64,000 bases of DNA from an uncultured virus (IMG/VR IMGVR_UViG_3300045180_000051) (taxonomy: Duplodnaviria > Heunggongvirae > Uroviricota > Caudoviricetes), in the IMG/VR virus record IMGVR_UViG_3300045180_000051. The stretch is one strand, 5' to 3'. The position numbers and the translations under genes were made by a program. The notes beneath the pieces were generated by a model. The model was not told where the DNA came from. It saw only the letters and a list, made by a program, of their open reading frames with translations, and did not search any database. Position 1 is the stretch's first letter, and each line of letters starts with the position of its first letter. Below, one piece after another: positions 9,327 to 61,853 of the stretch.

Positions 9327-9428
9327 GAATAGATGCTCCTCGTGTGGTTTTGGTAAGCGTGACGACCTGTGGCGTGAAAACGCTCGGATCGTCGATGGCT
9401 GGAAATCCTGGGGCGATACGCCCCGTCG

Positions 9429-9629
9429 CTATCTTCTCTTGTCGCGCTCTTCTATCTTTGCATCGATCCACGCTTCCACTTCGGTGCGGACAAATGCGAT
9501 GCGCTTGACGCCTATCTGAACAGGTGCAGGAAAGTGACCTTCCTTCGCCAGCGACGAGATCAGAAAACGCGACATAGTTGTGGCTTCCGTCACTTCGGTA
9601 GGCGACATAAGGCGTGGCTTGTCGTCCAT
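9429..9629 (-). CDS. AlpA family transcriptional regulator
   Basis: EVTEATTMSR...GHFPAPVQIGVKRIAFVRTEVEAWI. Confidence 0.85.
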   Translation of the reverse strand: MDDKPRLMSPTEVTEATTMSRFLISSLAKEGHFPAPVQIGVKRIAFVRTEVEAWIDAKIEERDKRR

Positions 9630-9856
9630 CACAACACCCCCATCGCGCCGACGCCCACAACAACGCAAAACCCAATGACAACAGTCATCTCAACGGCTTC
9701 ACGCGCTGCGTATCGTATCCAAGGCATGGGGCGAGCGTGCTTTTTGGCGCGGTAATCAGGGCGCCGCATTGGCTCATCGCTGCCCGCACGCGCGGCGTCT
9801 GTCTGCAGGTCTGGTTCCATATCGGCGAGCATTTCCAGCAGGGCGCGGTTCATCAC
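9629..9856 (-). CDS. Hypothetical protein with C-terminal TM helix
   Basis: Coupled ORF with hydrophobic C terminus. Confidence 0.55.
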   Translation of the reverse strand: MMNRALLEMLADMEPDLQTDAARAGSDEPMRRPDYRAKKHARPMPWIRYAAREAVEMTVVIGFCVVVGVGAMGVL

Positions 9857-10176
9857 GCAGCCTCCGCCATCTCGTGGTCTTCGCTGGCGATAGTCTCAAC
9901 GCTGCCGGGCATCTCGTCGACGAGTGCCTGATCGCTGGTAGCAATCGCGCCGCTTGTCTGGAAGACTTCGTATGTTTCGCCCGGGCAGAGCTTGGCGAGG
10001 CGCGTCGCCTCTGCCAGTGCTTGCTCAAAGGAGCCGTGTTCATACGGTAGGGTAGTGGCAACGCTAACGCGGCCGGTATGCTTGCCGCGGCGGAATACAA
10101 AGAATCCGCCGCCGATGACTTCGTTCTTCCGAGGTGCTGGCGATCTTCTTCTTCTCGGGGTTTTCGCGTTCGTCAT
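9853..10176 (-). CDS. First gene of the leftward early operon, hypothetical (ends AEAA)
   Basis: ACACGAGGAG RBS downstream of the PL-like promoter. Confidence 0.7.
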   Translation of the reverse strand: MTNAKTPRRRRSPAPRKNEVIGGGFFVFRRGKHTGRVSVATTLPYEHGSFEQALAEATRLAKLCPGETYEVFQTSGAIATSDQALVDEMPGSVETIASEDHEMAEAA

Positions 10177-10241
10177 TGGGTTACTCCTCGTGTTTGGTTG
10201 GTTCAGCAGATCGAGCTGGTGAGGCTGTCTTCGTGCTGTTC

Positions 10242-10300
10242 TGTCACCTATATATGCTTATCAGTCACCGCATGTCAACATCAACGATGACAAAAACACA
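10242..10300 (-). promoter_or_regulatory. PL-like early promoter/operator
   Basis: TTGACA (10273-10278) with TATATA -10 (10249-10254); mirror image of 11343-11400. Confidence 0.75.
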
Positions 10301-10337
10301 TCGACGAAATTCACAGGGTTAACCAAACATGAAGAAT

Positions 10338-10352
10338 GTTCTTGAAATGTTC
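10338..10352 (+). promoter_or_regulatory. Alphaproteobacterial LexA (SOS) box
   Basis: GTTC-ttgaaat-GTTC (GTTC-N7-GTTC). Confidence 0.7.
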
Positions 10353-10629: not shown

Positions 10630-11307
10630 TTAACGAGTGTTGTATTTCCCAACAACGCGATGGCAGACAGGCCAATCCGCTCGAAATTCCTTGAATTCCT
10701 TGTGCGGGTTGTACTGCTCTAACATCCATTCGCGATCATTGAAGCCGACAAGTCGTTTGATGATCGCTTCGTTCTCGTCCATTGCACTTGTGTGATAAAG
10801 AATTACGTCTTCATCACGAACTGGCGGCAAATTCGGGTTTACGAGTGCGGTTTCGCCGGGGCGATAGGCAGGAACCATGGACTCTCCGGACAATAGAAGT
10901 CCGTATCCACCCTTAACGCCCTGCAGTACGGCAGGCATTTTCATATAGCTGATTGGATCAAAGGTGATGATGACGTGGCCATCGCCGCCCTTGGCCGCTG
11001 CATAGACCGGCAGGCCGCGTTCCTGGCTAACAAGCTGCTCGCCCGGAATGGGTGAAGGCGTGAAAGTATCGGAAATTGGTTTAGCTGATGTAGCGGCCAT
11101 TTCGCCATTACCAAAAGCTAGCCAATCCTCATTTAGATCGAGCGCACGAGCGAGGCGGGCAACAAAATCGACGCTTGCGCCGCGTTTCCCGCCTTCCAAC
11201 AGACTGATCGACGACTTGTCGCGCCCAATAAGGGCGGCAAGGTCAGCCTGGCTCATTCCTTTAAGTTCACGCGCCGAACGAAGGCGCTGCGCGAAATCTT
11301 TGTCCAT
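10630..11307 (-). CDS. CI-like phage repressor (XRE HTH plus S24 autopeptidase)
   Basis: RLRSARELKGMSQADLA HTH, A-K-G-G cleavage-site region, GESM serine and IIKRL lysine. Confidence 0.9.
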   Translation of the reverse strand: MDKDFAQRLRSARELKGMSQADLAALIGRDKSSISLLEGGKRGASVDFVARLARALDLNEDWLAFGNGEMAATSAKPISDTFTPSPIPGEQLVSQERGLPVYAAAKGGDGHVIITFDPISYMKMPAVLQGVKGGYGLLLSGESMVPAYRPGETALVNPNLPPVRDEDVILYHTSAMDENEAIIKRLVGFNDREWMLEQYNPHKEFKEFRADWPVCHRVVGKYNTR

Positions 11308-11342
11308 GATGCGCTTTTCGCATAAAGTTGTGAAAATGTAAC

Positions 11343-11400
11343 GTGCGTTTTTGTCATCACATGTTGACAGTGGTGCGAATCTGTCATATATAGGTGTCAT
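11343..11400 (+). promoter_or_regulatory. PR-like early promoter/operator
   Basis: TTGACA (11364-11369)-N17-TATATA. Confidence 0.75.
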
Positions 11401-11844
11401 CAACCGGCGCAGAAGACGCTGGAATCACAAAATGGCAGGCAACGAATTGAACATCCTTCCAAGGATCACCGCCATCGAAAGATAGGCAAGTTTAACAGGG
11501 TAATAGAGGAGAGACGTAATGACGAATTCAGCCGCAAGAAGCGAAAACGTTTCTACTAAACCGCCGTAGAAATAACAGGGACACTGGTCGCTTAACAGCG
11601 GCTGGTGCTTTCGGCGTAGCCAAGGGACACTCGCATACCAAGGTCAGCAAGCCACGTCGAAAATTTTAAAGGCGGAGTTTATGAGCCGGCACCACCCGCT
11701 GCTCGCTCCGCCTCGTAATCAGAAGGGTACACGAGGAGTTTTTCAACACCAAACCCTTCTTTTCCTTCGCGAGTACCACCCCGCGCAGGACCACAGATGG
11801 CTTCACCAAGGCCATTTGTCAACCAACACCAACACGAGGAGAGC

Positions 11845-12123
11845 ATGAAAGATTATGAAACAATAGAAGAGGTGCATCGTATGCACGAGGCAAGCGCCAC
11901 TCCGACTGAGATTGGAAACGCGCTTAGCCTGCCCAGATCGACAGTGGCTTCAATTCTGCGCCGCCCGATCCCAAAATCTACAGCCGACCGCATCATTGTG
12001 CGGTGTGTTTCTAACGGTGGTTGGTCCACGGCCAATCACTGTGTGAGTTATATCGCAATGCCACGCATTCGTGCGCTGGAAGCCGCGAACGATAACTTTG
12101 AGCCGGGCGCAATCGCAGCCTGA
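11845..12123 (+). CDS. HTH protein ending in an ssrA-like tail (AANDNFEPGAIAA)
   Basis: TPTEIGNALSLPRSTVASILRR HTH; ACACGAGGAG RBS. Confidence 0.75.
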   Translation: MKDYETIEEVHRMHEASATPTEIGNALSLPRSTVASILRRPIPKSTADRIIVRCVSNGGWSTANHCVSYIAMPRIRALEAANDNFEPGAIAA

Positions 12124-12407: not shown

Positions 12408-12709
12408 CTTGCGAATGCGGTGACTGCTGGGATCTGCCCGGCTCAATTGTGACCCACAAGCTGACAGGCTGGAAGGGCATCATCATTGGCGATCGAGACG
12501 GCTGCATGTACCTCACTGTGCGGTTCTGGATACCAGATACCGGGCTTGGGACAATCGAAGTTTCGCGCTTCGAAGTTGAACCACCGGCCAATGATGGCGA
12601 CGGCGGTGGCGGCCCTGAGGTCGGAACAGAAGAAGACAATGTCATTCCGGTCGATTTCACCAAGGGCGTGAAGCTGACCAAAAAAACCAAAACACGAGGA
12701 GTAGCTTGA
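12404..12709 (+). CDS. Hypothetical protein
   Basis: GTGA coupling. Confidence 0.6.
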   Translation: MTCECGDCWDLPGSIVTHKLTGWKGIIIGDRDGCMYLTVRFWIPDTGLGTIEVSRFEVEPPANDGDGGGGPEVGTEEDNVIPVDFTKGVKLTKKTKTRGVA

Positions 12710-13686
12710 TGGGTAAATTTAAAGCTGGATTTAAGGTTAGAAGCCTGGTGACGCAGATCGACGTTCGCGCAGGCGAACTGTACGAGGTAAAAACCGTCGA
12801 GAATGGCGGTGTTTGGGTTATCGACGGTGTTGGCGACGAGTTCTATTTGACGTCAGATGAGTTTGAAATTCTGCCTTTTGCGGCGCAAACGTTTAAGGTC
12901 GGCGACCGGGTGCGTTTGACTATTGATGAAGGCGAGGGCCGTAATAGCGGTTCCATCGGTGTCATCGAGGAAATCAAGAATAATTATGCGCGCGTATTGT
13001 TCGACGCGCCTTTTGGTGGATGGGGAACAACAGGGCGCAATTGGCACGCACAATTATCCGACCTTGTAGCCGCTCCCCTCAAAATCGAAGCAGGCAAATA
13101 CTACCGTACGCGTGACGGCCGTAAGGTTGGGCCTATGATGGCACGAAATAATGATTCATATGCATTTGCTGCTGATATAGCCGGTGATATCGGGATCCGC
13201 ATCTTCCAGAAAGACGGTGTTCACGGATCACGCTGGATAGGCAATGAGCCAAATCTCGACCTCATCGCCGAATGGCTCGACGAGCCTGTCAAAGCAGCTG
13301 CACCGGTCCAGTTTACGATGCGAAACTTTAAGCTCACATTTGAGCCCGTCGCAAAACCCGCCATCGTCGCGCTGATCGAAAACGGCCAGCCAAAGCCGTC
13401 CACGCTGCCGTTCGTTCACGCCAATGAAACGTTGGCCGCAAAGGAAGCCGCGCGTCTAGCAGGTGTCCACAAGGGCCAGGAATTCGGCGTGTATGTGCTG
13501 ACGCAGAAGGTGAGTGAGCCTGCACCATCCTATAAGCACGAATGGCAACGCTTCGCTGCAAAGGGTGAGAAGCTTTCAGCGATCAAAGAGCTGCGATCTG
13601 TGACTGGTCTCGGGCTCAAGTCGGCAAAGGACGCCGTCGACCACTGGATCGCTCACGACGAGCCTTACTCGCGCATCGCCGCCTAA
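12709..13686 (+). CDS. Mosaic multidomain protein with KOW/SH3-like modules and a C-terminal ribosomal bL12-CTD-like domain
   Basis: FKVGDRVR modules; KLSAIKELRSVTGLGLKSAKDAVD. Confidence 0.7.
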   Translation: MGKFKAGFKVRSLVTQIDVRAGELYEVKTVENGGVWVIDGVGDEFYLTSDEFEILPFAAQTFKVGDRVRLTIDEGEGRNSGSIGVIEEIKNNYARVLFDAPFGGWGTTGRNWHAQLSDLVAAPLKIEAGKYYRTRDGRKVGPMMARNNDSYAFAADIAGDIGIRIFQKDGVHGSRWIGNEPNLDLIAEWLDEPVKAAAPVQFTMRNFKLTFEPVAKPAIVALIENGQPKPSTLPFVHANETLAAKEAARLAGVHKGQEFGVYVLTQKVSEPAPSYKHEWQRFAAKGEKLSAIKELRSVTGLGLKSAKDAVDHWIAHDEPYSRIAA

Positions 13687-14042: not shown

Positions 14043-14485
14043 CGGCGCCGTGGAGCAACCAGCCCTTCAAAGACTACGTCGTCGAGGACGACCGCATCTT
14101 GTCCAGCGAAACGACGCTCGGCCTTGGTGACCGCTTCGTCATGGGGCTGGCAGTTGTCGCAGCCTTAGCACTGGCCATCGGCTTTTACTCATGGGTGCTG
14201 TCGTGAACGTCGTCACTCCAGCCGGTAATGGCACCGGGAAGATTGCACGTTCGCTGGCTCTGACCGGTTTTACGCTCGGTCTCTTGCTGATCGTGGCAGG
14301 ATTCATTTTCTGGAACGCCGTGCTGCCTTTCTACGGCCTGCTTTATTTGTGGGGTGGCCAATGATCTACCCACGGTTTCCCACGCTGGCAACTTCTGCGC
14401 CAGTCTGGCTGATCGGCTCACTCATCCTGCTGACCATGATGATCGTCATTCAACTTACCCACTAACCACACACGAGGAGTTAATT

Positions 14486-15912: not shown

Positions 15913-15940
15913 CCACACCACCAACACGAGGAACTAACAC

Positions 15941-16501: not shown

Positions 16502-16563
16502 GCACCAAAAAGCTGCCGGTGCTTTCGCGCCGGTAGCCCACCGAACCAACACGAGGAGTTTTT

Positions 16564-17367: not shown

Positions 17368-17425
17368 AAACCAACCACGGCGCGGTCACCAGCCGCGCCT
17401 AAACCACCAACACGAGGAGAAGCCC

Positions 17426-18484
17426 ATGCGGGTAACGCTTGACCGAGCGCAGCTAGCGCACGCCTTGTCGACAGTGACGAAGGCAGTTGAAGCCAGAACG
17501 ACAATTCCTATTCTTGGCAACGTGCTCTTGTCCGCTGACAAAGGACAGTTGAGCATCACCGGCACAAATCTTGATCTGGAAATCAGCACCAGCTTGCCGG
17601 TTCTGGATAGCCAGGACGGCACTGTCACGGTCGCGGGTAAGCTGCTTCTGGATATTGCCAAGCGGGCCACAAGTGACGTTAACTTGGAAGCCGACGGCAA
17701 TCATCTGGTTGTCAAATCTGGCAAAAGCCGTTTCAAGCTGGACACACTGCCAGCTACTGACTTCCCGTCCTTCAATCGCGGAAGCTTCGACACCACGATC
17801 GAAGTGGATCTCGCTTCGCTCGTGCAGACAGTCCAGTTTGCGGTCAGTACCGAAGAAACCCGTTATTACCTGAACGGCGTATTTCTGGAAGCCAAGGACG
17901 GACATATCGTTGCCACAGCGACAGATGGGCATCGTCTCGCGTCAACACGCATTGAACAGGAGGCCGCGTTTGCTCCGGTCATTCTGCCTAACAAGCTGCT
18001 GTCATTGCTGCCGACCGGCGTTGTGTCGGTTTCGTTGTCGTCGAACAAGGTGATGGTCGAGAGCGGTTCGACAGTCATCGTGTCGAAACTCGTCGACGGC
18101 ACATATCCAGATTACGAGCGCGTCATTCCAAAGCCATCGGAGCGTGTAGCTACGCTATCGGCAAAAGCATTGCGCGAAGCTGTTGGACGTACATCAGTTA
18201 TCGCCAGCGAGCGTGGTAAGGCGGTTCGGTTCTCATTTGCTTCGGATGCTCTCACGCTGAATGTTGCTAATCCCGATCGCGGCGACGCAACTGAGAAAAT
18301 GGAAGTCAACTTCAGCAGCGAGCCTCTGACGATTGGTTTCAACGGTCAGTATGTCACCGACCTCATGAGTGCATTCGGTACAGATGAAGTCACGATGTCG
18401 ATGGCAGATTCTGGTTCGCCTGCACTGATCACGTCAGCCGGTCGGCCGGGATACAGGTGCGTGCTTATGCCGATGCGGGTCTGA
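17426..18484 (+). CDS. dnaN: Phage-encoded DNA polymerase III beta sliding clamp
   Basis: TIPILGNVLL, EETRYYLNGV, ATDGHRL, GTYPDYERVIP, C-terminal VLMPMRV. Confidence 0.95.
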   Translation: MRVTLDRAQLAHALSTVTKAVEARTTIPILGNVLLSADKGQLSITGTNLDLEISTSLPVLDSQDGTVTVAGKLLLDIAKRATSDVNLEADGNHLVVKSGKSRFKLDTLPATDFPSFNRGSFDTTIEVDLASLVQTVQFAVSTEETRYYLNGVFLEAKDGHIVATATDGHRLASTRIEQEAAFAPVILPNKLLSLLPTGVVSVSLSSNKVMVESGSTVIVSKLVDGTYPDYERVIPKPSERVATLSAKALREAVGRTSVIASERGKAVRFSFASDALTLNVANPDRGDATEKMEVNFSSEPLTIGFNGQYVTDLMSAFGTDEVTMSMADSGSPALITSAGRPGYRCVLMPMRV

Positions 18485-18486
18485 AT

Positions 18487-19231: not shown

Positions 19232-19233
19232 TC

Positions 19234-22464: not shown

Positions 22465-22592
22465 AAAAACAAGAACGCCCGCTGCACTGGGAGGAGGAGT
22501 GTGCAACGGGCTGATCTGGAAAGCGCGGCTATTGGGAGGAGGAGTGCCACGCTTCGAGTTCAGCCTCTGGGAGGAGGAGTGAGACTGAACAA
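22465..22592 (-). ncRNA. Cuckoo/ar14-family-like sRNA with three CCUCCUCCC hairpins
   Basis: TGGGAGGAGGAGTG at 22488, 22533 and 22568, each inside an inverted repeat; 3' U-run; TTGTAA-N17-TATCTT upstream on the minus strand. Confidence 0.8.
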
Positions 22593-22668
22593 CCTGAAGA
22601 TAGGTAGCTGGTATGATGATTACAATGGGCGATGGTGCACATCAGTTATGCAGCATATGCATGGCCAT

Positions 22669-23071: not shown

Positions 23072-23199
23072 ATTCAAACGTAACATCAAAGGCATGCAAG
23101 TAAAAGTTACATTTACTTTAGATTCCTGTTGCGTCGAATGACGACCCCACCACAATGAGCATTACCCGGCCTTACCAGCCAACCACACGAGGAGCAGAA

Positions 23200-24535: not shown

Positions 24536-24619
24536 TAGGTTTGCCTCCCCTTTGGGCAACTCTATCACACACCCCGCCAGCCACCAACTGGCGGGTTACC
24601 ACACACGAGGAGAGAATGA

Positions 24620-29700: not shown

Positions 29701-29850
29701 ATACAACCTGATTTGAGGTTGGTTGAAATTATGCCGGTTGACGCTTGACCGACCTGTCACTCCCACCATGATGTGAATTGTTCCGCTACCAACGGGACAA
29801 CGCCAACGGAAGCCCACCAAGCTGACGCACCATGAACATGAGGAGAGACC

Positions 29851-30399: not shown

Positions 30400-30427
30400 G
30401 TGACGAACCAAACACGAGGAGAATTTT

Positions 30428-47172: not shown

Positions 47173-47274
47173 GATCTTTTAATGTCGGATTTAGCTTAAA
47201 GCTAAGTAAAACGGTGTGGTTAATCATCTGTATCCTTCACTAAAGCCAGCCCACAGTTATCATTAGGAGGCTTC

Positions 47275-47841: not shown

Positions 47842-47849
47842 GGATCGCC

Positions 47850-52404: not shown

Positions 52405-52427
52405 CAATCCGAAAATCGGAGAATATA

Positions 52428-53612
52428 ATGGCTGTTTTGTCAGATTACACCTCTGGCAGGATTTCGCTCGCCAACGGTTCGGTTACTGTTACCGGCACCG
52501 GAACGCTGTTTAATGTTGCGAAATTCCGTGAAGGCGACACGCTACAAATTCAAAACCTGACAGCGGTCATTGCGAGTGTGAACAGCGATACCTCGCTGAC
52601 GCTTACAGCGCCGTGGACGGGGACAACTCTCACCAATGCTGTATATCGCGCTCGCTATCTTCCTGACGGTGCTCGTGTGACCGCCCAGGCAACAACTCTT
52701 ATTGAGCTTCTTGGGAATGGCAACCTGCAGTCGCTAGCTGGTCTGACGGGAGCCGCGGACAAAGGCATCATGTTCACAGGCGCGGGAACTGCCGGAACGT
52801 TTGATCTAAGTGAAATTGGACGGAGAATTGCGGCAATTACCGATGGCGTTTCATCGCAAATCATTCAGGGAGATGGAACGCGGGTTGCTAAATCATCTTT
52901 GCCAATTAGCGCTGCTACACAAACTGCCCTTGATGCTAAGGCACCGATAGCTACCCCTGTTTTTCAAGGTCAAACGGATATCTTGAGGGGTAGTTTACGT
53001 TTTCGTGGCGACCAAAACGTCAATCAAAATCTTATTGTTGTTCAGGAGTTTGGCACTCAACGATGGGGAATAGATTACGTCTATACTGACCAGTCTCTCC
53101 GAATTCAAGCTTTTACGGGAGGCACTTGGACGGGTGAAGCGGTCATTTTCAGACCCAACAAAAGTGTAGCTTTTCTTGGAACAATCTCAAAGGCTGGCGG
53201 CACTTTCGAAATTGATCACCCGTTGGACCCCTTCAACAAAAATCTGCGCCATGGATTTGTTGAAAGTACGGAATATGTGAACATTTATCGCGGTATGGTC
53301 GATCTTGTTGATGGGCGAATGTCTGTCGATATTGATGCTGCTTTCGGCATGACGGATGGAACCTTCGCAGCGCTCAACGCTGACGTGATAGTTTCATCAT
53401 TGCAAAACCAGTATGGGCCGGATCGCGTATGGGTCGAGGCTCCAGCCGACAGCGGCAAATTCACCATTATCTGTGAAGATACGGAAAGCACGGCAACTAT
53501 CGCTTGGATGGTGACTGGACGCCGTAATGATGCCTTTGTGCGTTCTGATCTCGATCCGAATACCGACAGTGAAGGCCGGTTCATTCCAGAGTTTGACAAG
53601 GAGGATGCATAA
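52428..53612 (+). CDS. Tail fibre with C-terminal chaperone-like domain
   Basis: GSVTVTGTGTLF, LAGLTGAADK, FEIDHPLDP...LRHGFVES. Confidence 0.8.
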   Translation: MAVLSDYTSGRISLANGSVTVTGTGTLFNVAKFREGDTLQIQNLTAVIASVNSDTSLTLTAPWTGTTLTNAVYRARYLPDGARVTAQATTLIELLGNGNLQSLAGLTGAADKGIMFTGAGTAGTFDLSEIGRRIAAITDGVSSQIIQGDGTRVAKSSLPISAATQTALDAKAPIATPVFQGQTDILRGSLRFRGDQNVNQNLIVVQEFGTQRWGIDYVYTDQSLRIQAFTGGTWTGEAVIFRPNKSVAFLGTISKAGGTFEIDHPLDPFNKNLRHGFVESTEYVNIYRGMVDLVDGRMSVDIDAAFGMTDGTFAALNADVIVSSLQNQYGPDRVWVEAPADSGKFTIICEDTESTATIAWMVTGRRNDAFVRSDLDPNTDSEGRFIPEFDKEDA

Positions 53613-54094
53613 TGTCCGTAACGCAGCAGGTTCCAGACTTGTCAGGTCTGGGAAAAAAAGGTCTGCCGATGCATTACCAAGCGTTCGGTATCGAACCGCC
53701 TATGAAGACCGTTCCGGTTGAAGATGGCGAACCTGTCACCGACAACCCCGGCATGACGATACCAGAGTACGTAGCGGCAAAGCGCTGGGAGGCAGAGGTC
53801 GGTGGAATTGAGGTTGATGGATTGCTCATAGCTACCGACGATCGCTCAAAGATGATGATCTCAGGCGCTCGCGTTGCTGCACAGGGAAATCCAGAATTTT
53901 CCACTCAATGGAAAACGGCGACGGGAGAGTTTCTTATGGTCGACGCTGCAACAATCATCGCAGTTAGCGATGCTGTTCTCGATCATGTCGCCCAGTGCTT
54001 TGCTGTTGAAGCTTCAATCACAGCAGATATTAAAACGGGCGTCGATTTCACGTTCGCGGATATTGATGAAATCTTTGCTCGCCATTTTCCCTAA
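53612..54094 (+). CDS. DUF4376-like tail fibre assembly protein
   Basis: KRWEAEVGGI...TDDRS...WK...HVAQCFAVE. Confidence 0.8.
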   Translation: MSVTQQVPDLSGLGKKGLPMHYQAFGIEPPMKTVPVEDGEPVTDNPGMTIPEYVAAKRWEAEVGGIEVDGLLIATDDRSKMMISGARVAAQGNPEFSTQWKTATGEFLMVDAATIIAVSDAVLDHVAQCFAVEASITADIKTGVDFTFADIDEIFARHFP

Positions 54095-55102: not shown

Positions 55103-55768
55103 CTAGAACTTGTAAGCAATGCCGAGTGTAGCGGTATGTTGGCTTAGACGGCGAGCCCAATCCCTAACAAGATCTTGTTTGCCGAAGTCGTTGTAACGAT
55201 ATGCAACGCGACCGATGATGTTTTGTGTGATTGCCCAATCCGCTCCAGCGCCAATGTTCCAGCCATTTCTGTCTATATCTGACTTGGCGTATGAAGAAAG
55301 ATAACCCGGAGTGACGGCATCGCTCATTAGGCTAAACCAGCCCCGTGAGTATCCAGCAGTGATGTAGGGCAGATACTGTCCGAAGGCGTAGCCAAGGCGT
55401 CCATTGACCGACGCTGTCGCTTTTGACCGAAATCTCTCTTGGAAATAAGCATCGTCACTTGCGGTGTTTAACACCCAAGGAAGTTTGTCAGCTTTGAATT
55501 CGCCGCCTGTGAATTCTACGGAAACTTCTGGACCGAATACCCACTGGCCATGTTGGAAATTGTATCCGACATAGCCGCCACCTGTGACGTTAGCGCCGTC
55601 CGCACTGTAATATTGGTTCCAAATATCAAACGGTGTGTCTGTCTTCGCTTTAGACCATCTCGCACCGATGCTCACGCCCCCATAGATGCCGGACCAGTCA
55701 AATGTCTCGGCAACAGCGGTGTTCGTCCACGCGGCAGCGACAACGGTAACAATAAGTAAATGCTTCAC
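55103..55768 (-). CDS. Omp25/Omp31/RopB-family outer-membrane beta-barrel (lysogenic conversion)
   Basis: Signal peptide, DWSGIYGG, GGYVGYNFQ, RLGYA, C-terminal GIAYKF. Confidence 0.9.
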   Translation of the reverse strand: MKHLLIVTVVAAAWTNTAVAETFDWSGIYGGVSIGARWSKAKTDTPFDIWNQYYSADGANVTGGGYVGYNFQHGQWVFGPEVSVEFTGGEFKADKLPWVLNTASDDAYFQERFRSKATASVNGRLGYAFGQYLPYITAGYSRGWFSLMSDAVTPGYLSSYAKSDIDRNGWNIGAGADWAITQNIIGRVAYRYNDFGKQDLVRDWARRLSQHTATLGIAYKF

Positions 55769-55840
55769 AGAAATCTCCCCAAGCCTGCCCAGCGCGGAGA
55801 GTATGACGAGAATTTCAAATCTGCAACTCTAAGAAAGTAA

Positions 55841-55927
55841 ATCGAAAAGGCTGCCGTCACTAAAGCGATACCGCATGTCTTCACGGATGAAGGCGACTAC
55901 GTTTACAACCCGAAAGACCCGGGCGGC
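55841..55927 (+). pseudogene. Remnant of a GH108-type endolysin N terminus
   Basis: Translates KAIPHVFTDEGDYVYNPKDPGG (cf. EGGYVNHPxDPGG); no start codon, no continuation. Confidence 0.55.
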
Positions 55928-55971
55928 GTAGTGCCCGGCTGCACAATCTTCTTTTTTGTCTTAGCGAAAAA

Positions 55972-56331
55972 TTATTCGCACTGATACCGGGCCTCATACT
56001 GCGGCTCGAAGACAAGAGAAATGTCGTTAACCCGACAGGTGCGGCCCTTTGATGCTAGGAATGCTTCTGCCGCATCACGGTAGACCACTTCGGCGTTCAT
56101 TGGATTGTAGGCTCCGAACGTTGCTCCTTTAACAACTCCACCTCCAAAGGAAGCGCCTAAGGTGGGAGTTATCATTAAGCGGTTTTCAGTCGGCTTATCG
56201 TAAATCCGATATCCAGTGCCTGATGGCGCTGTATACGACACCGGCTTAACGCTCGAATAGTGCTGCATAGCATAGTTCGCACCTGCGCATCCCGTCAGCG
56301 CTAGCAGCGCCACAATTCCCAAACGTTTCAT
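55972..56331 (-). CDS. Lipoprotein (moron)
   Basis: MKRLGIVALLALTGC lipobox. Confidence 0.75.
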   Translation of the reverse strand: MKRLGIVALLALTGCAGANYAMQHYSSVKPVSYTAPSGTGYRIYDKPTENRLMITPTLGASFGGGVVKGATFGAYNPMNAEVVYRDAAEAFLASKGRTCRVNDISLVFEPQYEARYQCE

Positions 56332-56372
56332 TCCCGCCCTCACAAGTTGTGGCGGCAATCTAGGACAATCAA

Positions 56373-57236
56373 ATGAACAAAACAACGTTCTTCGCGTATG
56401 CGAGGCGCGCGCCTTTTGGCGGCCGTTTGAGCCAGGCTCAGGTTGATGGCACATCGGCTATCTTGGCCGAAGCCGAGCGCCGCAATTTACCCGACGAGCA
56501 GACCGCCTATATCCTTGCGACTGTCTTTCATGAGACTGGCGGCAAGATGCAGCCGGTCATCGAGAATCTGAACTACACCAGTGCGGCGCAAATTCGGAAG
56601 ACATGGCCAAAGCGCTTTTCGTCAATCGCATCGGCCCAGCCATATGTTCGCCAGCCTCAAAAGCTCGCTAATAAGGTCTATGGCGGCCGCATGGGTAACG
56701 ACAGCGTTAATGACGGCTGGACTTATCGCGGGCGAGGCCTGCCTCAGATTACAGGCGAGGACAACTACAAGAAGTTCGGTATTGCCGATGCGCCAGAGAA
56801 GGCGCTGGAGTTAGCCACGGCAATCCGTATCCTCTTTGAAGGCATGGTGCTGGGCAAGTTCACTGGGCGCAAGCTGAGTGACTTTTTCGGCAAGGGCAAA
56901 ACAGATCCTGAAGGCGCGCGTGTCATCGTCAACGGCACCGACAAGGCCACGCTGATCTCCGGCTATTATCGCAACTTCCTAGACAGCCTGATTGCTGCGC
57001 GGGAAATGAAGGCCGCTGCTCCTGATGACGCCAAGCCTGACGACGTGCCTTTGCTCAAGGATAAGACGGTGCAGACCATCGTCGCAGCTGGTGGCGGTAC
57101 GTTCTTGACTGGCCTTATCAGCGCCGTGTCGAACCCGTGGGCATTCTTGACAGTCGCACTAGTGCTCGTCGCCATCGGTGGCGGTTTCTGGCTCTGGCAT
57201 ACAGACAGGCTCGAACTGAAGAGGGTGGCGGCGTGA
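56373..57236 (+). CDS. GH19-type endolysin with C-terminal TM segments
   Basis: HETGG, ENLNY, ANKVYGGRMGN, YRGRGLPQITG. Confidence 0.9.
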   Translation: MNKTTFFAYARRAPFGGRLSQAQVDGTSAILAEAERRNLPDEQTAYILATVFHETGGKMQPVIENLNYTSAAQIRKTWPKRFSSIASAQPYVRQPQKLANKVYGGRMGNDSVNDGWTYRGRGLPQITGEDNYKKFGIADAPEKALELATAIRILFEGMVLGKFTGRKLSDFFGKGKTDPEGARVIVNGTDKATLISGYYRNFLDSLIAAREMKAAAPDDAKPDDVPLLKDKTVQTIVAAGGGTFLTGLISAVSNPWAFLTVALVLVAIGGGFWLWHTDRLELKRVAA

Positions 57237-57417
57237 GGATCGTAATTGATTACGATGCTGATGCGCAGACTGCTGAAGTCGCGATTGGCGAAAAGGTCCA
57301 GTGTTGGACCGGTGTGCACCTAACGCTCGCGCAAGGCATCACCGAAACTCGCGATGGGTATCTGATCCGCCGCGAATGCGACGGTTCGAAGTCCTTGCTT
57401 CTTACAGGAGAGTAAGC

Positions 57418-57654
57418 ATGACCTTCCTCCTAGCACTTCGCTCCAAGTTGACAGGCTACGCCGTTGCTCTGAGCGCGGCGTTGGCCGTCCTTGTCAGCGC
57501 GTACCTCAAAGGCCGGTCCGACAGCAAAACAGCTCAGGCCGCGCGCGAAGCACAATCGGCAACCAAAGCACGGAAGATAGAAAATGAAGTCAGCCGTCTT
57601 GATGACAGCGCTGTTGACGCTCGGCTTGCTAAGTGGATGCGCGACAAGCGGTAA
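57418..57654 (+). CDS. i-spanin (Rz-like)
   Basis: N-terminal TM plus coiled coil; overlapped by a lipoprotein ORF. Confidence 0.7.
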   Translation: MTFLLALRSKLTGYAVALSAALAVLVSAYLKGRSDSKTAQAAREAQSATKARKIENEVSRLDDSAVDARLAKWMRDKR

Positions 57655-59139: not shown

Positions 59140-59258
59140 GCAAATCCCCCCCCCCGAATCCTAAATTTCACCCATCATACTTGACGCCCCTTTCACTTCC
59201 ACCACAATGACAAATTGCGGGCCACCAACCCGCAAACCAATCAACACGAGGAGACTGT

Positions 59259-59543
59259 ATGTCCGAACAGGCACAGGGCGCGGGTGCGCGCGTAAATACG
59301 GGTGGGCCTGCCCATCCATTCCTTACATGGCAAAATCCGCAAGGGTTCCGTATAGGCAGTCTTCATGAAGGTCTGACGATACGTGATCATTTTGCGGGGC
59401 AGGCGTTGCAAGGTCTTATTGGCGGATCGCACCATGAGATGGCGACCTTCGCAGAGACGAACAATACAACAATCGTAAAGGTGGCCGCCTCGTTAGCTTA
59501 CGCATACGCCGACGCCATGATCGTTGCCAGAGGTGCCGCGTGA
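59259..59543 (+). CDS. Small phage protein (GGPAHP...GLTIRDHFAGQALQG)
   Basis: ACACGAGGAG RBS; related to 7972..8202. Confidence 0.7.
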   Translation: MSEQAQGAGARVNTGGPAHPFLTWQNPQGFRIGSLHEGLTIRDHFAGQALQGLIGGSHHEMATFAETNNTTIVKVAASLAYAYADAMIVARGAA

Positions 59544-60253
59544 GTAAGACTTTTGCAGTCGCCGACCTTCACGGACGATACGATCTATTGCTGGCCGCAA
59601 TCGAACGCATCGAACAAAGCAGCCACTCTGGTGGCACCATTGTATTCATGGGCGATTACGTTGACCGTGGGCCGCAAAGCGCACAGGTCATTGAACGACT
59701 GATGCAAGGGCCGGATGACCCGAAACGCTGGAAATGGGTATGTTTGCAGGGAAATCATGAAGAGATCATGTTGACCTGCCTTTTCGCCACTGGCCTCGCG
59801 GGCTCGTATTGGATGCCGAACGGTGGCGGCGCGACACTTCTGTCGTACGGAGCAAAGGAAGGCGGATCTATATCCTCAGCGCTCACGCTTGTTCCACAGT
59901 CGCACATCGATTGGCTTAAAGCCCTGCCTATGATCCACTTGGATGAGCATCGTGTGTTCGTTCATGCCGGCGTTGACGAGACTATCCCGCTCGATAAGCA
60001 GACGAAACAGACCATGCAATGGATGCTGTATCCAGATGGATATGAAGGCGGGCATCGCGAAAGGCACGTTGTTCATGGCCATCATCAATTTGAAGATGGC
60101 CCGTTGCTATTTTCAGGACGCACTGACCTCGACACCTTCGCTTGGTATACCGGCCGTCTAGTGGTCGGCGTGTTCGACGACAGTAAGCCCGGCGGCCCGG
60201 TCTCCACGATTGAGATCAAAGGCCCGTCAATACACGAGCTTCGAGGACAATAA
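59540..60253 (+). CDS. Ser/Thr protein phosphatase-like metallophosphoesterase (lambda PP/NinI-like)
   Basis: ADLHG, GDYVDRG, GNHE, VHAG, HGH. Confidence 0.9.
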   Translation: MSKTFAVADLHGRYDLLLAAIERIEQSSHSGGTIVFMGDYVDRGPQSAQVIERLMQGPDDPKRWKWVCLQGNHEEIMLTCLFATGLAGSYWMPNGGGATLLSYGAKEGGSISSALTLVPQSHIDWLKALPMIHLDEHRVFVHAGVDETIPLDKQTKQTMQWMLYPDGYEGGHRERHVVHGHHQFEDGPLLFSGRTDLDTFAWYTGRLVVGVFDDSKPGGPVSTIEIKGPSIHELRGQ

Positions 60254-61507
60254 ATGCTTTCCAAACAAGAACTAGCCCGCCGTGTTGCTGCATATCAGCA
60301 GCACGGCACGATAACGAAGGCTGCGCACGCGTGCGGCGTCAAGAAGTCTGCATTTCACGACAGCATCAAACGCGCGGCTGAGCTCGGGCTGATGGGTCCG
60401 AAAGAAACGCTGCCCGGTTATACAATCAAAAGCCTGACCGAGACGCCGAACGGCACGTACATGCGCCAGACGAAAGAGGCTGGCCCTGTCTACGAAGCGA
60501 CTGCCGGTCTAGCGGTTAAAGGCAAGACGACGCTCGTTAACAGCGAAGGGCGCATCGTCACGCAGCACATCATGGAACGTGCGGACGCCGACCAACAGCG
60601 TGCAGCAATCACGGCCATGGTTGAAGCACTAAAAGAAGATTTGCCGCGCGTTTCGATTATGCCGGCGCCAAAGGGGTGTCGCGAGGATCTGTTGAATCAG
60701 TTCACGATCACTGACAACCATTTCGGCATGATGTCGTGGCGCGAAGAAACTGGCAGCGATTACGATCTGCGGATTGCCGAGCAGCTATTGCTTGATTGGT
60801 TCTCTGCGGCTGTGGCACAGGCTCCCGACGCTCACACGGCCATTCTGGCGCAGTTGGGCGACCTTATGCATCACGATGCGCTTGAAAGCGTCACGCCTGC
60901 CCACAAGCATGTTCTGGACGCTGACAGCCGCCTGCAGAAAGTCATTCGCATTGTGATCCGAACGATCCGCCGCATCATTGATATGCTTTTGCAGAAGCAC
61001 GAGCGCGTTCATGTCGTGATGGCTTCGGGGAATCACGACCCGGCCTCATCCGCATGGCTTCGTGAGATGCTCGCCGTTATGTATGAAGACGAACCTCGCA
61101 TCACTGTCGATAATTCACCGTCGCTCTATTACGCATTCGAGTGGGGCAGCACGATGCTTGCCTATCATCACGGGCACAAGCGAGGAGTCGCAAATATCGA
61201 GGGCACGATTGCTGGCATGTTCCGTGGAATGTTTGGCCGCTCGCTACACGCCTACGTGCATATCGGACACCGACACAGCGACGATGCCAGAAAAGGCACG
61301 CTGATGTATGTCGAGCAGCATGAAACGCTCGCAGCACCAGACGCTTATGCCGCTGGCGGTGGGTGGCTGTCTGGTCGATCAGCTAAACGGATAACCTATA
61401 GCAAGCAGTTTGGTGAAGTCGGTCGCGACATTCTCCGGCCCGAGATGGTCGCAGGGAAGTATGCGGCATCTAATGATAATGCGAAAAGTCAAAGGGCTGC
61501 AGCCTAA
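60254..61507 (+). CDS. HTH-fused calcineurin-like metallophosphoesterase
   Basis: N-terminal HTH; TDNH, GD, GNHD, HHGH, GHRH. Confidence 0.8.
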   Translation: MLSKQELARRVAAYQQHGTITKAAHACGVKKSAFHDSIKRAAELGLMGPKETLPGYTIKSLTETPNGTYMRQTKEAGPVYEATAGLAVKGKTTLVNSEGRIVTQHIMERADADQQRAAITAMVEALKEDLPRVSIMPAPKGCREDLLNQFTITDNHFGMMSWREETGSDYDLRIAEQLLLDWFSAAVAQAPDAHTAILAQLGDLMHHDALESVTPAHKHVLDADSRLQKVIRIVIRTIRRIIDMLLQKHERVHVVMASGNHDPASSAWLREMLAVMYEDEPRITVDNSPSLYYAFEWGSTMLAYHHGHKRGVANIEGTIAGMFRGMFGRSLHAYVHIGHRHSDDARKGTLMYVEQHETLAAPDAYAAGGGWLSGRSAKRITYSKQFGEVGRDILRPEMVAGKYAASNDNAKSQRAAA

Positions 61508-61510
61508 CCG

Positions 61511-61747
61511 TCAGCCCTTTTGGGACGCTAGATAGTCTGCAACGGCCGCTCGAATTTCAGTTTCAAGTTGGCTGGTTTGTGCCAAAATTTCTTTCATGGC
61601 TAAATCCTTATTGTCGATGAATGGGGAACGCATCCTTCCGTCTATTGGTGGAGCTATTGGGCCATATTCCACGACCACCTTCTTGCCGGAGAACTGCACA
61701 GTGATGGATGCTGAGTTCCCAACGTACTTGGCGTCTAATATTTGCAT
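61511..61747 (-). CDS. Small opposite-strand protein
   Basis: GGGAGG RBS. Confidence 0.6.
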   Translation of the reverse strand: MQILDAKYVGNSASITVQFSGKKVVVEYGPIAPPIDGRMRSPFIDNKDLAMKEILAQTSQLETEIRAAVADYLASQKG

Positions 61748-61853
61748 ATCGGCCTCCCTGATTGTTTATCAGTGTAGGCTGGGAAACCGCATCAAGACAA
61801 TACCAACCACGCCGCCCACCAAGCGGCGTTTCACCACAACACGAGGAGAGCAT

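What the first reader, a model, noticed from the sequence alone, without database searches (positions are those of the whole stretch)
9336..61848. Start-associated element: CACCA-loop hairpin, C/A-rich linker, then ACACGAGGAG at 14 sites
Seen: exact ACACGAGGAG at 9336(-), 10184(-), 11729, 11832, 12692, 14470, 16549, 17410, 23185, 24603, 30412, 59244 and 61839; ACACGAGGAA at 15924; variant ACATGAGGAG at 29836. It is always on the transcribed strand and, except 11729, 4-9 nt before a start codon. I saw none in host DNA or the head/tail genes. ACAC extends beyond the Shine-Dalgarno. Many copies are preceded by a hairpin with different stems but the same loop: CCCGCCAG-ccaccaa-CTGGCGGG (~24573), TTGCGGG-ccaccaa-CCCGCAA (~59215), ACGCCGC-ccaccaa-GCGGCGT (~61809), GGCGCGG-tcaccag-CCGCGCC (~17379), AGC-ctcacca-GCT (~10214,-), AGC-ccaccaa-GCT (~29811). 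Varying stems with a constant loop argue for an RNA structure. Inference: a regulon-wide RNA site, such as nut boxB/boxA-like antitermination, a translational control site like mycobacteriophage start-associated sequences, or an RNA processing signal.
Basis: partly seen in the sequence, partly recalled or inferred. Interest (0 to 1): 0.78.

Follow-up and report, generated by a model that had tools for sequence, protein, structure and literature searches.

The report
Phage-private start signal before early genes
A temperate phage of Ochrobactrum-type soil bacteria puts the same ten-letter ribosome-binding tag, an unpairable C/A-rich lead-in and often a small CACCA-loop RNA hairpin in front of its early genes only, a private translation start signal much like one long known but never explained in mycobacteriophages.

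Summary
ACACGAGGAG occurs 13 times in the window (0.12 expected), plus two one-letter variants. Fourteen of these 15 sites lie 3-9 nt before an ATG. All are on the coding strand of non-structural prophage genes and none is in host DNA or the head, tail or lysis genes. In five related host genomes 55 of 64 copies lie inside the one prophage. All 37 close relatives in IMG/VR carry the motif.

The 10 nt before the motif are 74-92% A or C. Twenty-two of 50 independent contexts have a hairpin there, and 13 of those show ACCA in the loop, on about eight unrelated stems. Motif start regions are predicted to be much more open than those of other phage genes, but their pairing to 16S rRNA is no stronger.

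Best reading (about 0.45): a cis-acting translation start cassette. It combines a C/A-rich "ACA" enhancer or standby tract, a uniform Shine-Dalgarno sequence and an insulating hairpin. It is the alphaproteobacterial counterpart of the start-associated sequences of cluster K mycobacteriophages.

The exact ACAC and the CACCA loop still suggest an unknown reader. The prophage also carries an ar14 anti-Shine-Dalgarno sRNA. Antitermination (nut-like), RNA processing and recombination-linker readings gained no support. This scan noted CACCAC-loop hairpins before start sites in another phage.

The parts
9336..9345 (-). Motif ACACGAGGAG, 9 nt before the ATG at 9326 (77-aa ORF)
10184..10193 (-). Motif, 7 nt before the ATG at 10176 (107 aa). 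This is the first gene behind the leftward early promoter.
10204..10238 (-). Imperfect hairpin with a CUCACCA loop in the roughly 60-nt leftward leader, followed by the linker AACCAACCAA
11729..11738 (+). Copy of the motif without a start codon, in the roughly 445-nt rightward leader. It is kept in relatives although both flanks vary. CCTCGT at 11711-11716 is complementary to its ACGAGG.
11793..11819 (+). 11-bp hairpin with a CACCA loop, followed by the linker CAACCAACACCA
11832..11841 (+). Motif, 3 nt before the ATG at 11845 (92-aa helix-turn-helix-like first rightward gene)
12692..12701 (+). Motif plus A/C tract embedded in the 3' end of the upstream ORF, 7 nt before the ATG at 12709 (325 aa)
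14470..14479 (+). Motif, 6 nt before the ATG at 14486 (Sak4-like annealing protein)
15924..15933 (+). Variant ACACGAGGAA, 7 nt before the ATG at 15941 (DUF669 / SSB-like)
16512..16537 (+). 11-bp hairpin with a UUUC loop, followed by the linker CCACCGAACCA
16549..16558 (+). Motif, 5 nt before the ATG at 16564 (267 aa)
17379..17399 (+). 8-bp hairpin with a CACCA loop, followed by the linker UAAACCACCA. Nucleotide diversity is 0.007 among 27 distinct relatives.
17410..17419 (+). Motif, 6 nt before the ATG at 17426 (DNA polymerase III beta clamp)
23185..23194 (+). Motif, 5 nt before the ATG at 23200 (exonuclease). A weak GGC-CUUACCA-GCC hairpin lies before it.
24573..24595 (+). 8-bp hairpin with a CCACCAA loop, followed by the linker UUACCAC. 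In relatives the same cassette stands before at least five different genes.
24603..24612 (+). Motif, 7 nt before the ATG at 24620 (MT-A70 methyltransferase)
29778..29800 (+). 8-bp hairpin with a CUACCAA loop, followed by the 3-bp mini-hairpin AGC-CCACCAA-GCT
29836..29845 (+). Variant ACATGAGGAG, 5 nt before the ATG at 29851 (182 aa)
30412..30421 (+). Motif, 6 nt before the ATG at 30428 (121 aa)
59215..59235 (+). 7-bp hairpin with a CCACCAA loop, followed by the linker ACCAAUCA
59244..59253 (+). Motif, 5 nt before the ATG at 59259 (94 aa; first gene of the right-arm block)
61809..61829 (+). 7-bp hairpin with a CCACCAA loop, followed by the linker UUUCACCACA
61839..61848 (+). Motif, 5 nt before the ATG at 61854 (nucleoside 2-deoxyribosyltransferase-like)
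22472..22597 (-). Prophage-borne ar14-family sRNA with three CUCCUCCUCCC (anti-Shine-Dalgarno) loops. It is a possible trans partner of the GAGGAG core and is not shown to act on it.

Best explanation
The element is a phage-private translation-initiation cassette read in the mRNA. It has four parts.

(1) A uniform Shine-Dalgarno core, (G)AGGAG, placed 3-9 nt before an ATG.

(2) Directly 5' of it, ACAC and a further 6-12 nt made almost only of A and C. Such a tract cannot pair with itself, so it keeps the ribosome-binding site single-stranded. It matches the C/A-rich 'ACA' enhancer and CA-repeat standby tracts that raise initiation in enterobacteria.

(3) Where a new translational unit begins after an intergenic gap, a stable stem-loop ending about 7-12 nt before the motif. 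Its loop usually displays another CACCA. I infer that it insulates the start site from whatever mosaic sequence lies upstream and protects the RNA.

(4) Restriction to the non-structural (early and replication) genes on both arms of the prophage.

Shown: the anatomy, the statistics, the specificity for this phage, the conservation and the predicted openness. Not explained by this reading alone: why ACAC is letter-perfect while the neighbouring linker drifts freely, and why a copy without a start codon is kept in the leader.
For: Position. Fourteen of 15 sites lie 3-9 nt before an ATG, always on the coding strand.

Composition. In 50 independent upstream contexts (288 instances, 204 distinct), positions -5 to -1 are 86-92% A or C and positions -10 to -6 are 74-84%.

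Openness. For motif start regions (n=14) against other phage genes (n=55), mean unpaired probability over -20..+3 is 0.64 against 0.44. Opening cost is 7.0 against 12.9 kcal/mol (Mann-Whitney p = 3e-7 and 3e-5).

Pairing to 16S. Pairing to the 16S tail is the same in both groups, -8.4 against -8.5 kcal/mol (p = 0.93). The distinguishing feature is therefore context, not Shine-Dalgarno strength.

Gene class. Among genes preceded by a gap of 25 nt or more, 10 of 16 non-structural genes carry the motif against 0 of 10 late genes. My own hypergeometric estimate is about 0.0015.

Phage specificity. In five host genomes 55 of 64 copies lie in the prophage. Of 41 CACCA-N0-12-GAGGAG-N3-9-ATG sites, 28 lie in the prophage. 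Only 3 of 301 genomes of the family have more than 10 copies, each clustered in about 55 kb.

Deeper conservation. Distant relatives keep the hairpin, a CACCAC tract and GAGGAG, but not ACAC. These are L043 and L045 (clamp 46% identical) and L057 (41%).

Selection at the clamp site. Hairpin diversity is 0.007 and motif diversity 0.037, against 0.20 at third codon positions. The linker has 10 different versions, all A/C-rich.

Literature (passages read). ACA motifs and C/A-rich tracts just 5' of the Shine-Dalgarno sequence enhance translation up to 100-fold in Salmonella (PMC3879156). Single-stranded CA-repeat tails of 16-18 nt act as ribosome standby sites (PMC5934652).
Against: A pure composition or enhancer effect predicts drift in the four letters before the Shine-Dalgarno sequence. 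Instead ACAC is exact in 190 of the distinct contexts, against 56 one-mismatch contexts, some of which are chance hits in coding sequence. Meanwhile the adjacent linker varies freely.

The copy at 11729 has no start codon and no A/C linker, yet it is kept in relatives with different flanks.

The loop CACCA sits at a nearly fixed distance, 19-28 nt and mostly 19-23, from the motif. That looks like a two-part binding site.

The enhancer literature is from enterobacteria, not alphaproteobacteria. Host genes almost never use this architecture, which is odd if it simply suits the host ribosome.

No expression data could be read.
Confidence: 0.45

Rival explanations
1. Operator for a dedicated trans-acting RNA-binding protein, phage- or host-encoded. 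A two-part site (CACCA in a loop or linker, plus ACACGAGGAG over the Shine-Dalgarno sequence) lets one factor switch the whole early regulon on or off. This would resemble CsrA at GGA hairpins or T4 RegA and RegB at early start sites.
For: The 10-mer is letter-perfect, including four letters the ribosome cannot pair with. The copy without a start codon is conserved in the leader. The loop-to-motif distance is fixed at 19-28 nt, and a second CACCA lies at -5 to -8 at 7 window sites. All five CACCA loops with stems of 7 bp or more in the window are next to a motif. The motif is restricted to one temporal gene class.
Against: No RNA-binding domain was found in the phage proteins at Pfam E up to 0.5 or in PHROGs. 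Only sub-threshold hits appeared (an RMF-like one, 19.4 bits against a cut-off of 27.9). Distant relatives keep the C/A tract and hairpin without ACAC, so the older layer needs no sequence-specific reader. A host factor would be expected to have host targets, but only 0-4 copies per genome lie outside the prophage.
Confidence: 0.22
2. Target set of ar14-type anti-Shine-Dalgarno sRNAs. The exposed GAGGAG of the early genes is paired by the CUCCUCCUCCC loops of ar14 sRNAs (5-7 gene copies per host genome, in some genomes one of them inside the prophage). That would give an RNA-level layer of immunity or timing.
For: An ar14 family member (70.8 bits against a gathering score of 58.8) lies inside the prophage at 22472-22597(-). 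It has three loops complementary to GAGGAG. About half of the full-length relatives carry it. All 5 host genomes have 5-7 ar14 matches. Predicted loop duplexes are somewhat stronger with motif start regions, -11.1 against -9.1 kcal/mol (p = 0.013), and these sites are unusually open. Notes from this scan report phage hairpin RNAs that mirror private ribosome-binding motifs in other phages; these are unchecked leads.
Against: Complementarity covers only the 6-nt GAGGAG and does not explain ACAC or CACCA. Sixteen of 55 other phage genes pair as well or better. Ten of about 20 full-length relatives lack the phage copy yet have equal motif counts. I searched for papers on NfeR1/ar14 but read only listings and abstract openings. 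That ar14 loops act as anti-Shine-Dalgarno repressors is otherwise from my own knowledge.
Confidence: 0.1
3. Portable gene-cassette linker. The shared 10-mer and hairpin are kept because recombination between copies swaps genes between phages while always regenerating a working start site, as proposed for the promoter-stem-loop cassettes of T4-type phages.
For: In relatives the CCCGCCAG-CCACCAA-CTGGCGGG-TTACCAC-motif cassette precedes at least five different genes. The clamp gene has four different upstream cassettes. In L033 the 16549-type hairpin is joined to the clamp gene exactly at the motif, with the gene in between lost.
Against: In the control, motif starts are not more mosaic than other gene starts. 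A different upstream sequence was found in 34 of 209 cases against 103 of 255. A different downstream sequence was found in 54 of 210 against 93 of 260. Recombination alone does not explain the fixed distance to the ATG or the early-gene restriction.
Confidence: 0.1
4. RNA punctuation. The hairpin plus linker marks endonucleolytic processing or protects 5' or 3' ends, so that each early cistron becomes a separately stable mRNA, as with the RNase III sites of T7.
For: Hairpins sit in intergenic gaps (median gap 121 nt for motif genes against 2 nt for others) and lack U-tracts, so they are not intrinsic terminators. Twenty-four of 50 upstream contexts fold with z below -2.
Against: Only 22 of 50 contexts have a hairpin. 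Two sites lie inside upstream coding sequence. The linker has almost no U, which from my own knowledge makes it a poor RNase E site. No end data exist, because contigs cannot show ends.
Confidence: 0.07
5. A nut-like antitermination site, or a DNA-level site such as a stoperator for the repressor.
For: The hairpins have a constant loop. Sites are oriented with transcription and occur on both arms.
Against: There are 14 sites at a fixed 3-9 nt from start codons. There is no boxA-like enrichment. The loops are not of GNRA type. The operator half-sites at the two early promoters (TGTCA/TGACA around TTGACA-N17/18-TATATA, read) do not resemble the motif. No site lies in the late genes.
Confidence: 0.04

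Closest known systems
[quoted passage not shown] 2011, PMC3203893, passages read; PMC12699233 of 2025, passages read, says the function still needs experimental verification)
   Same: A short asymmetric repeat contains AGGAG. There are 11-19 copies per genome. It lies 3-7 bp before start codons, mostly ATG, in one orientation. It occurs only in the non-structural half of the genome and is nearly absent from the host. Conserved letters extend beyond what 16S rRNA can pair with. About half the sites have an extra upstream inverted repeat. One copy has no start codon.
   Different: The sequence differs (ACACGAGGAG against GGGATAGGAGCCC), as do the phage lineage and host phylum. Here the upstream repeat has free stems and a fixed CACCA loop and behaves as an RNA hairpin. 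The ESAS arms are conserved in sequence, and their authors judged that they do not support RNA pairing. Here there is also an obligatory A/C-only linker.
C/A-rich 'ACA' translational enhancers upstream of Shine-Dalgarno sequences in Salmonella and E. coli (yifK, dppA, gltI; PMC3879156, passages read), and CA-repeat ribosome standby tails (PMC5934652, passages read)
   Same: A G-poor, unstructured C/A tract with ACA directly 5' of a GAGGA-type Shine-Dalgarno sequence. The position is flexible within some 10-45 nt. The tract must be single-stranded.
   Different: Those are single host genes and targets of the GU-rich sRNA GcvB. Here the element is a phage-wide, letter-perfect 10-mer with a hairpin-displayed CACCA, in an alphaproteobacterial phage. 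No GU-rich partner RNA was found in the window.
CsrA/RsmA two-part sites (a GGA in a hairpin loop plus a GGA over the Shine-Dalgarno sequence); from my own knowledge
   Same: A short motif appears once in a hairpin loop and again next to or over the Shine-Dalgarno sequence, some 15-20 nt apart, at many genes.
   Different: The motif is CACCA, not GGA, and no CsrA-like protein was found in the prophage.
Lambda nut (boxA/boxB) and promoter-stem-loop cassettes of T4-type phages; from my own knowledge
   Same: A hairpin with a conserved loop beside a conserved linear word, repeated in early regions.
   Different: Position is tied to start codons, not to promoters. No promoter-like hit lies at the internal sites. 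There is no boxA word.
CACCAC-loop hairpins before ribosome sites of an uncultured 84-kb soil phage
   Same: Free stems, a CACCA(C) loop, about 25 nt before the start codon, about 20 genes.
   Different: It is another genome. I could not see its sequence, its host or whether it has the ACAC-GAGGAG word.

Membership tests
Start-associated sequences (SAS) of cluster K mycobacteriophages | Match to GGGATAGGAGCCC with at most 2 mismatches (the search rule of Pope 2011 and PMC12699233) | tested here: not met
   The repeat here is ACACGAGGAG and shares only AGGAG. It is therefore an analogue, not a member.
Start-associated sequences (SAS) of cluster K mycobacteriophages | Many copies, one orientation, 3-7 bp before start codons, ATG-biased | tested here: met
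   Fourteen of 15 sites lie 3-9 nt before an ATG on the coding strand.
Start-associated sequences (SAS) of cluster K mycobacteriophages | Restricted to non-structural genes and nearly absent from the host genome | tested here: met
   No copy lies in 32854-58369. Fifty-five of 64 copies in five host genomes lie inside the prophage. Only 3 of 301 family genomes have more than 10 copies.
Start-associated sequences (SAS) of cluster K mycobacteriophages | Conserved letters beyond the reach of the 16S rRNA 3' tail | tested here: met
   The host 16S ends ...CACCTCCTTTCT. ACAC faces U, C and U, which gives no pairs.
Extended SAS (ESAS) | Imperfect 17-bp inverted repeats with a conserved arm sequence, judged not to form RNA hairpins | tested here: not met
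   Here about eight unrelated, fully complementary stems of 5-12 bp share only the loop.
C/A-rich / ACA translational enhancer | G-poor C/A tract with ACA within a few nt 5' of the Shine-Dalgarno sequence, single-stranded | tested here: met
   See the composition logo and the openness comparison.
C/A-rich / ACA translational enhancer | Measured stimulation of translation initiation | not testable with these tools
   No expression data were usable.
Lambda-type nut site | A boxA word next to a boxB hairpin with a GNRA-like loop, one or two sites per operon close to the promoter | tested here: not met
   The boxA-like word gave 12 hits against 14.5 expected, none beside a site. The loops are YCACCAR. 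There are 14 sites next to ribosome-binding sites.
Stoperator (L5-type repressor sites) | Same sequence as the operator at the early promoter, spread over early and late regions | tested here: not met
   The operator-like repeats at the two early promoters are TGTCA/TGACA. No motif lies in the late genes.
Any described RNA family (Rfam 15) | Covariance-model match | tested here: not met
   No match at any site at E up to 1 over 9000-31000. Only ar14 and a weak DUF3800-V hit appeared, both elsewhere.

The most novel reading that the evidence does not exclude
The CACCA loop (or linker) together with ACACGAGGAG forms a two-part RNA operator read by a dedicated, still unidentified factor. That factor switches translation of the whole early regulon of this phage family. 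It could be a phage protein, or the ar14 anti-Shine-Dalgarno sRNAs carried by the host and, in some lysogens, the prophage, acting on the exposed GAGGAG. This would be a post-transcriptional layer of lysis-lysogeny control. Together with the CACCAC-loop hairpins noted in an unrelated soil phage, it would point to a widespread, undescribed phage translation code.
Probability: 0.25. Interest if true: 0.8.

Novelty: new variant of a known kind. Interest (0 to 1): 0.52.

Why it matters
Start-associated sequences have been known in mycobacteriophages since 2011 without a mechanism. This is an independent, statistically clean case in phages of Gram-negative alphaproteobacteria. It adds clear evidence for an RNA hairpin and a link to C/A-rich enhancer and standby tracts that have been characterised experimentally. 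If the cassette simply maximises and standardises initiation, it is a natural, portable high-efficiency start module for alphaproteobacteria. If it has a dedicated reader, it defines a new kind of phage translational regulon. It would also explain why such private ribosome-site tags keep turning up in unrelated phages.

Tried and rejected
Close named phages. None was found in the GenBank phage collection; the best match covered 3% of the query, at a methyltransferase gene.

Own genome. None is held, so five related host genomes reached through loci served as the host background.

Public RNA runs. Twenty-three metatranscriptome runs hold the stretch, but only as assembled contigs with flat depth. 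They give no RNA ends, strands or levels, so nothing can be concluded about expression or processing.

Pairing of the C/A leader to 16S rRNA. The only complementary words (UGGUG at about 268 and about 1231) lie inside the 16S body, and I know of no role for them in mRNA binding. This idea was dropped.

GU-rich partner RNA in the window. None was found apart from the antisense strands of the sites themselves.

Recombination hot-spot idea. The control showed no excess mosaicism at motif starts.

Phage tRNA-Met at 32138-32214 as a private initiator. It has a G1-C72 pair and a weak anticodon stem, so it is of elongator type.

RNase P minihelix mimicry (a stem followed by NCCA). The CCA is usually 2-5 nt away from the stem, so this was not pursued.

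Other searches. Rfam had nothing at the sites. A 16S covariance search in G002 found nothing because of the draft assembly. A pattern search found the 16S end instead.

Full report
**1. The observation**

ACACGAGGAG occurs 13 times in the 64-kb window, at exactly the coordinates and strands given. Shuffles give 0.12 on average and never more than 2. Allowing one mismatch adds ACACGAGGAA (15924), ACATGAGGAG (29836) and ACACGCGGAG at 44451(-). The last is antisense inside a tail gene and is compatible with the 3.2 chance hits expected.

Fourteen of these 16 places are followed, 3-9 nt later, by an ATG that opens an ORF of 77-352 aa. Sites 11729 and 44451 have no start. Two further ones were found: an 11-bp stem with a CACCA loop at 11793-11819 and an 8-bp stem with a CUACCAA loop at 29778-29800.

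**2. Context**

Bases 1 to about 5000 are host DNA. They encode an HWE histidine kinase, a BA14K-like protein and an alpha/beta-hydrolase, plus tRNA-Lys. The rest is one large prophage that runs past the window's end.

Its early region holds:
- a CI-like repressor (10630-11403, minus strand)
- divergent early promoters, read directly from the sequence as TTGACA-N17-TATATA (rightward, 11364-11392) and TTGACA-N18-TATATA (leftward)
- a Sak4-like protein, an SSB-like DUF669 protein, a beta clamp, a Cas4-type exonuclease, a helicase, methyltransferases and a primase-polymerase

Two tRNAs follow. Then come terminase, portal, protease, capsid and tail genes (34135-54094) and an endolysin with an Rz-like protein (56373-57654). 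A second block of non-structural genes begins at 59259, with a phosphatase, an exonuclease, a deoxyribosyltransferase and a kinase-like protein.

The motif marks genes of the two non-structural blocks only. Among genes that follow a gap of 25 nt or more, 10 of 16 non-structural genes have it and 0 of 10 late genes do. Median upstream gap is 121 nt for motif genes and 2 nt for the others.

**3. Relatives and host background**

No named phage is close. IMG/VR holds 37 loci whose clamp protein is 89-100% identical, and every one carries 2-12 copies. Seven loci at 32-46% identity carry none.

In species-representative genomes the close relatives (93-95%) are prophages of Ochrobactrum-clade species. 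Some of these are now named Brucella pseudogrignonensis, B. pituitosa and B. rhizosphaerae.

In five such whole genomes the motif occurs 11-15 times. Fifty-five of the 64 copies lie in the one prophage span of about 50-75 kb, with the same left / right / far-right layout and a motif-free gap of 30 kb or more over the structural genes. In a sample of 301 genomes of the family only three have more than 10 copies, each as one cluster. The rest have counts no higher than the reversed control word.

The wider architecture CACCA-N0-12-GAGGAG-N3-9-ATG is also phage-specific, with 28 of 41 hits in the prophages.

**4. Anatomy**

From 288 instances (204 distinct) I kept 50 upstream contexts that differ by more than 35%. 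Positions -5 to -1 are 86-92% A or C, positions -10 to -6 are 74-84%, and G and T are rare.

Twenty-two of the 50 contexts have a hairpin of 5 bp or more that ends within 25 nt of the motif. Thirteen of these show ACCA in the loop, 19-28 nt before the motif. The others have UUCG- or UUUC-type loops and then carry the CACCA in the linker.

About eight unrelated stems share the loop core YCACCAR. In the window CACCA is 20 times denser before the sites than elsewhere, and all five CACCA loops on stems of 7 bp or more lie 21-28 nt before a motif. None of the hairpins is followed by a U-tract. Rfam has no family for the element.

**5. Selection**

At the clamp gene, 27 distinct relatives give these nucleotide diversities:
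- hairpin: 0.007
- 10-mer: 0.037 (four variants)
- clamp coding sequence: 0.093
- third codon positions: 0.20

The linker between hairpin and motif has ten versions of 6-11 nt, all A/C-rich and mostly containing CACCA.

Over all relatives there are 190 distinct exact contexts against 56 with one mismatch. Twenty-two of the latter are the ..GGAA form at the SSB-like gene, and some are chance hits in coding sequence.

In the distant relatives L043 and L045 (clamp 46% identical) the site before the clamp gene keeps a 10-bp hairpin with the same CACCA loop on a wholly different stem. A CACCAC tract and GAGGAG follow, but no ACAC. L057 (41%, a Pseudaminobacter prophage) has long CCACCACC tracts directly before GAGGAG or AAGGAG.

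The hairpin, C/A tract and Shine-Dalgarno sequence therefore form an older layer. The letter-perfect ACAC is a feature of the Ochrobactrum lineage.

**6. What the ribosome can and cannot read**

The host 16S rRNA ends ...GGAUCACCUCCUUUCU. GAGGAG pairs with it over six positions, one of them a G-U pair. ACAC faces U, C and U and cannot pair.

Predicted pairing to the 16S tail is no stronger for the 14 motif genes than for 55 other phage genes (-8.4 against -8.5 kcal/mol, p = 0.93). The tag is therefore not simply a stronger Shine-Dalgarno sequence.

What differs is openness. Unpaired probability over -20..+3 is 0.64 against 0.44, and the cost of opening -20..+15 is 7.0 against 12.9 kcal/mol (p = 3e-7 and 3e-5).

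**7. Mechanism I commit to (about 0.45)**

The element is a cis-acting start cassette. The A/C-only tract, which includes ACA, is the natural counterpart of two elements characterised experimentally in enterobacteria. One is the ACA / C/A-rich enhancers just 5' of the Shine-Dalgarno sequence in yifK, dppA and gltI (PMC3879156, passages). The other is single-stranded CA-repeat standby tails, maximal at 16-18 nt (PMC5934652, passages).

I infer that the hairpin insulates the start site from whatever mosaic module lies upstream, displays a further CACCA in single-stranded form, and may stabilise the RNA. Two sites (12692 and probably 9336) lie inside the end of an upstream ORF, which fits a translation signal better than a transcript-boundary signal.

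Shown: anatomy, statistics, conservation and predicted openness.

**8. What this does not explain**

- ACAC is fixed while the linker drifts.
- The loop-to-motif distance is nearly constant.
- The copy at 11729 has neither a linker nor a start codon, yet it is kept in relatives with at least five different flanks.

That copy lies in a roughly 445-nt leader that folds better than all 100 shuffles (z = -3.0). The word CCUCGU at 11711-11716 is complementary to ACGAGG of both the start-less copy and the real start site at 11832. An anti-Shine-Dalgarno / decoy switch on the first early gene is therefore conceivable, but I could not test it.

These points keep a dedicated reader alive as the main rival (0.22). 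No RNA-binding domain was found among the phage proteins.

**9. The ar14 lead**

Rfam finds an ar14-family sRNA inside the prophage (22472-22597, minus strand; 70.8 bits). It has three loops reading CUCCUCCUCCC. About half of the full-length relatives have it. All five host genomes give 5-7 ar14 matches, and in G002 and G004 one of them lies inside the prophage.

The loops are complementary to GAGGAG only. Predicted duplexes with motif start regions are slightly stronger than with other genes (-11.1 against -9.1 kcal/mol, p = 0.013), but 16 of 55 other genes do as well. This is a testable candidate partner, not an explanation of ACAC or CACCA (0.10).

**10. Other rivals**

*Recombination linker.* Cassettes are clearly shuffled. 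One hairpin cassette stands before at least five genes, four different cassettes stand before the clamp gene, and one junction lies exactly at the motif. But motif starts are no more mosaic than other starts (34 of 209 against 103 of 255 for upstream; 54 of 210 against 93 of 260 for downstream).

*Processing.* Untested, because contigs cannot show ends.

*Nut-like or stoperator-like readings.* These fail on the number and position of sites, the loop type, the boxA word and the operator sequence.

**11. Comparison and novelty**

In behaviour the element matches the start-associated sequences of cluster K mycobacteriophages point for point. It is not a member of that sequence family, and its upstream part is a true RNA hairpin, unlike ESAS.

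I found no description of it. The searches that bear on this are Rfam, my paper searches for start-associated sequences, Ochrobactrum phages and CA-rich enhancers, and the lack of a match in the phage collection. Supplements were not consulted.

Earlier notes of this scan report CACCAC-loop hairpins before start sites in an 84-kb soil phage, and several other private start hairpins. These are unchecked, but they suggest the phenomenon is recurrent.

I rate this a new variant of a known kind, with interest about 0.5. It is real and clean, and it gives the long-open SAS question a second, structurally clearer system. Its core is probably an ordinary, if elegant, translation enhancer.

Noticed in passing
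window 22472-22597 (-): An ar14-family (RF02344) sRNA with three CUCCUCCUCCC loops and a terminator lies inside the prophage, antisense to the early operon, in the 745-nt gap before the exonuclease gene. About half of the relatives have it. Host genomes give 5-7 ar14 matches each.
   Followed up: partly
window 11400-11845 (+): The roughly 445-nt leader of the rightward early operon is strongly structured (z = -3.0). It contains a 16-codon ORF (ATG at 11520, preceded by GAGGAG) and a CCUCGU word complementary to both nearby motif copies. It may be an attenuator or decoy switch.
   Followed up: partly
window 11364-11392 (+) and about 10249-10284 (-): Divergent early promoters read as TTGACA-N17/18-TATATA, each followed by GGTG(T/A)CA and flanked by TGTCA/TGACA repeats that are probably the repressor's operators. 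The consensus scan missed them because its rule requires T at the last -10 position.
   Followed up: no
window 23140-23165 and 59195-59215 (+): Two motif sites share an upstream TTG(C/A)NN-N18-CAATGA box with the common word CCACCACAATGA. It may be an internal phage promoter.
   Followed up: no
window 32042-32214 (+): Phage tRNA-Pro(UGG) and an elongator-type tRNA-Met/Ile(CAU) lie between the early and late regions.
   Followed up: partly
window 18457-18765 (+): A 102-aa ORF has a sub-threshold match to ribosome modulation factor (E 0.0011; 19.4 bits against a cut-off of 27.9). It is present in only 6 relatives. It could be an Rmf/CrpP-type accessory gene.
   Followed up: no
window 12709-13686 (+): A 325-aa early protein ends in a ribosomal L7/L12 C-terminal-like helix motif (Pfam E 1.8e-6 over 28 residues). 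Its meaning is unknown.
   Followed up: no
window 30790-31707 (+): The last gene before the late region (305 aa, phrog_36072) has a weak sigma-70 region 4 match (E 0.0014). It is a candidate late-gene activator.
   Followed up: no
window 55103-56454 (-): Leftward genes sit between the tail and lysis genes: an outer-membrane beta-barrel protein (PF13505, E 8e-15) and a weakly lipoprotein-like ORF (LPAM_1, E 0.054). They are probably lysogenic-conversion morons.
   Followed up: no
window 18477-19235 and 25526-26596: Contigs in public runs join across these stretches, which are replaced by 12 and 10 other letters. Co-occurring phage variants therefore lack three small ORFs or the C5-methyltransferase gene. 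Three runs also diverge just left of the ar14 gene, at 22465.
   Followed up: no
window 4486-4561 (+): tRNA-Lys(UUU) lies close to where phage-like genes begin. It may be the attachment site. No integrase was recognised in the window, so it may lie beyond 64000.
   Followed up: no
window 38440-38478 (+): The major capsid gene lacks the motif but has a C/A-rich leader (GCAAACACACCACUCAUCAAAAUUUAAGGAG). This fits C/A tracts serving as a general enhancer in this phage.
   Followed up: no
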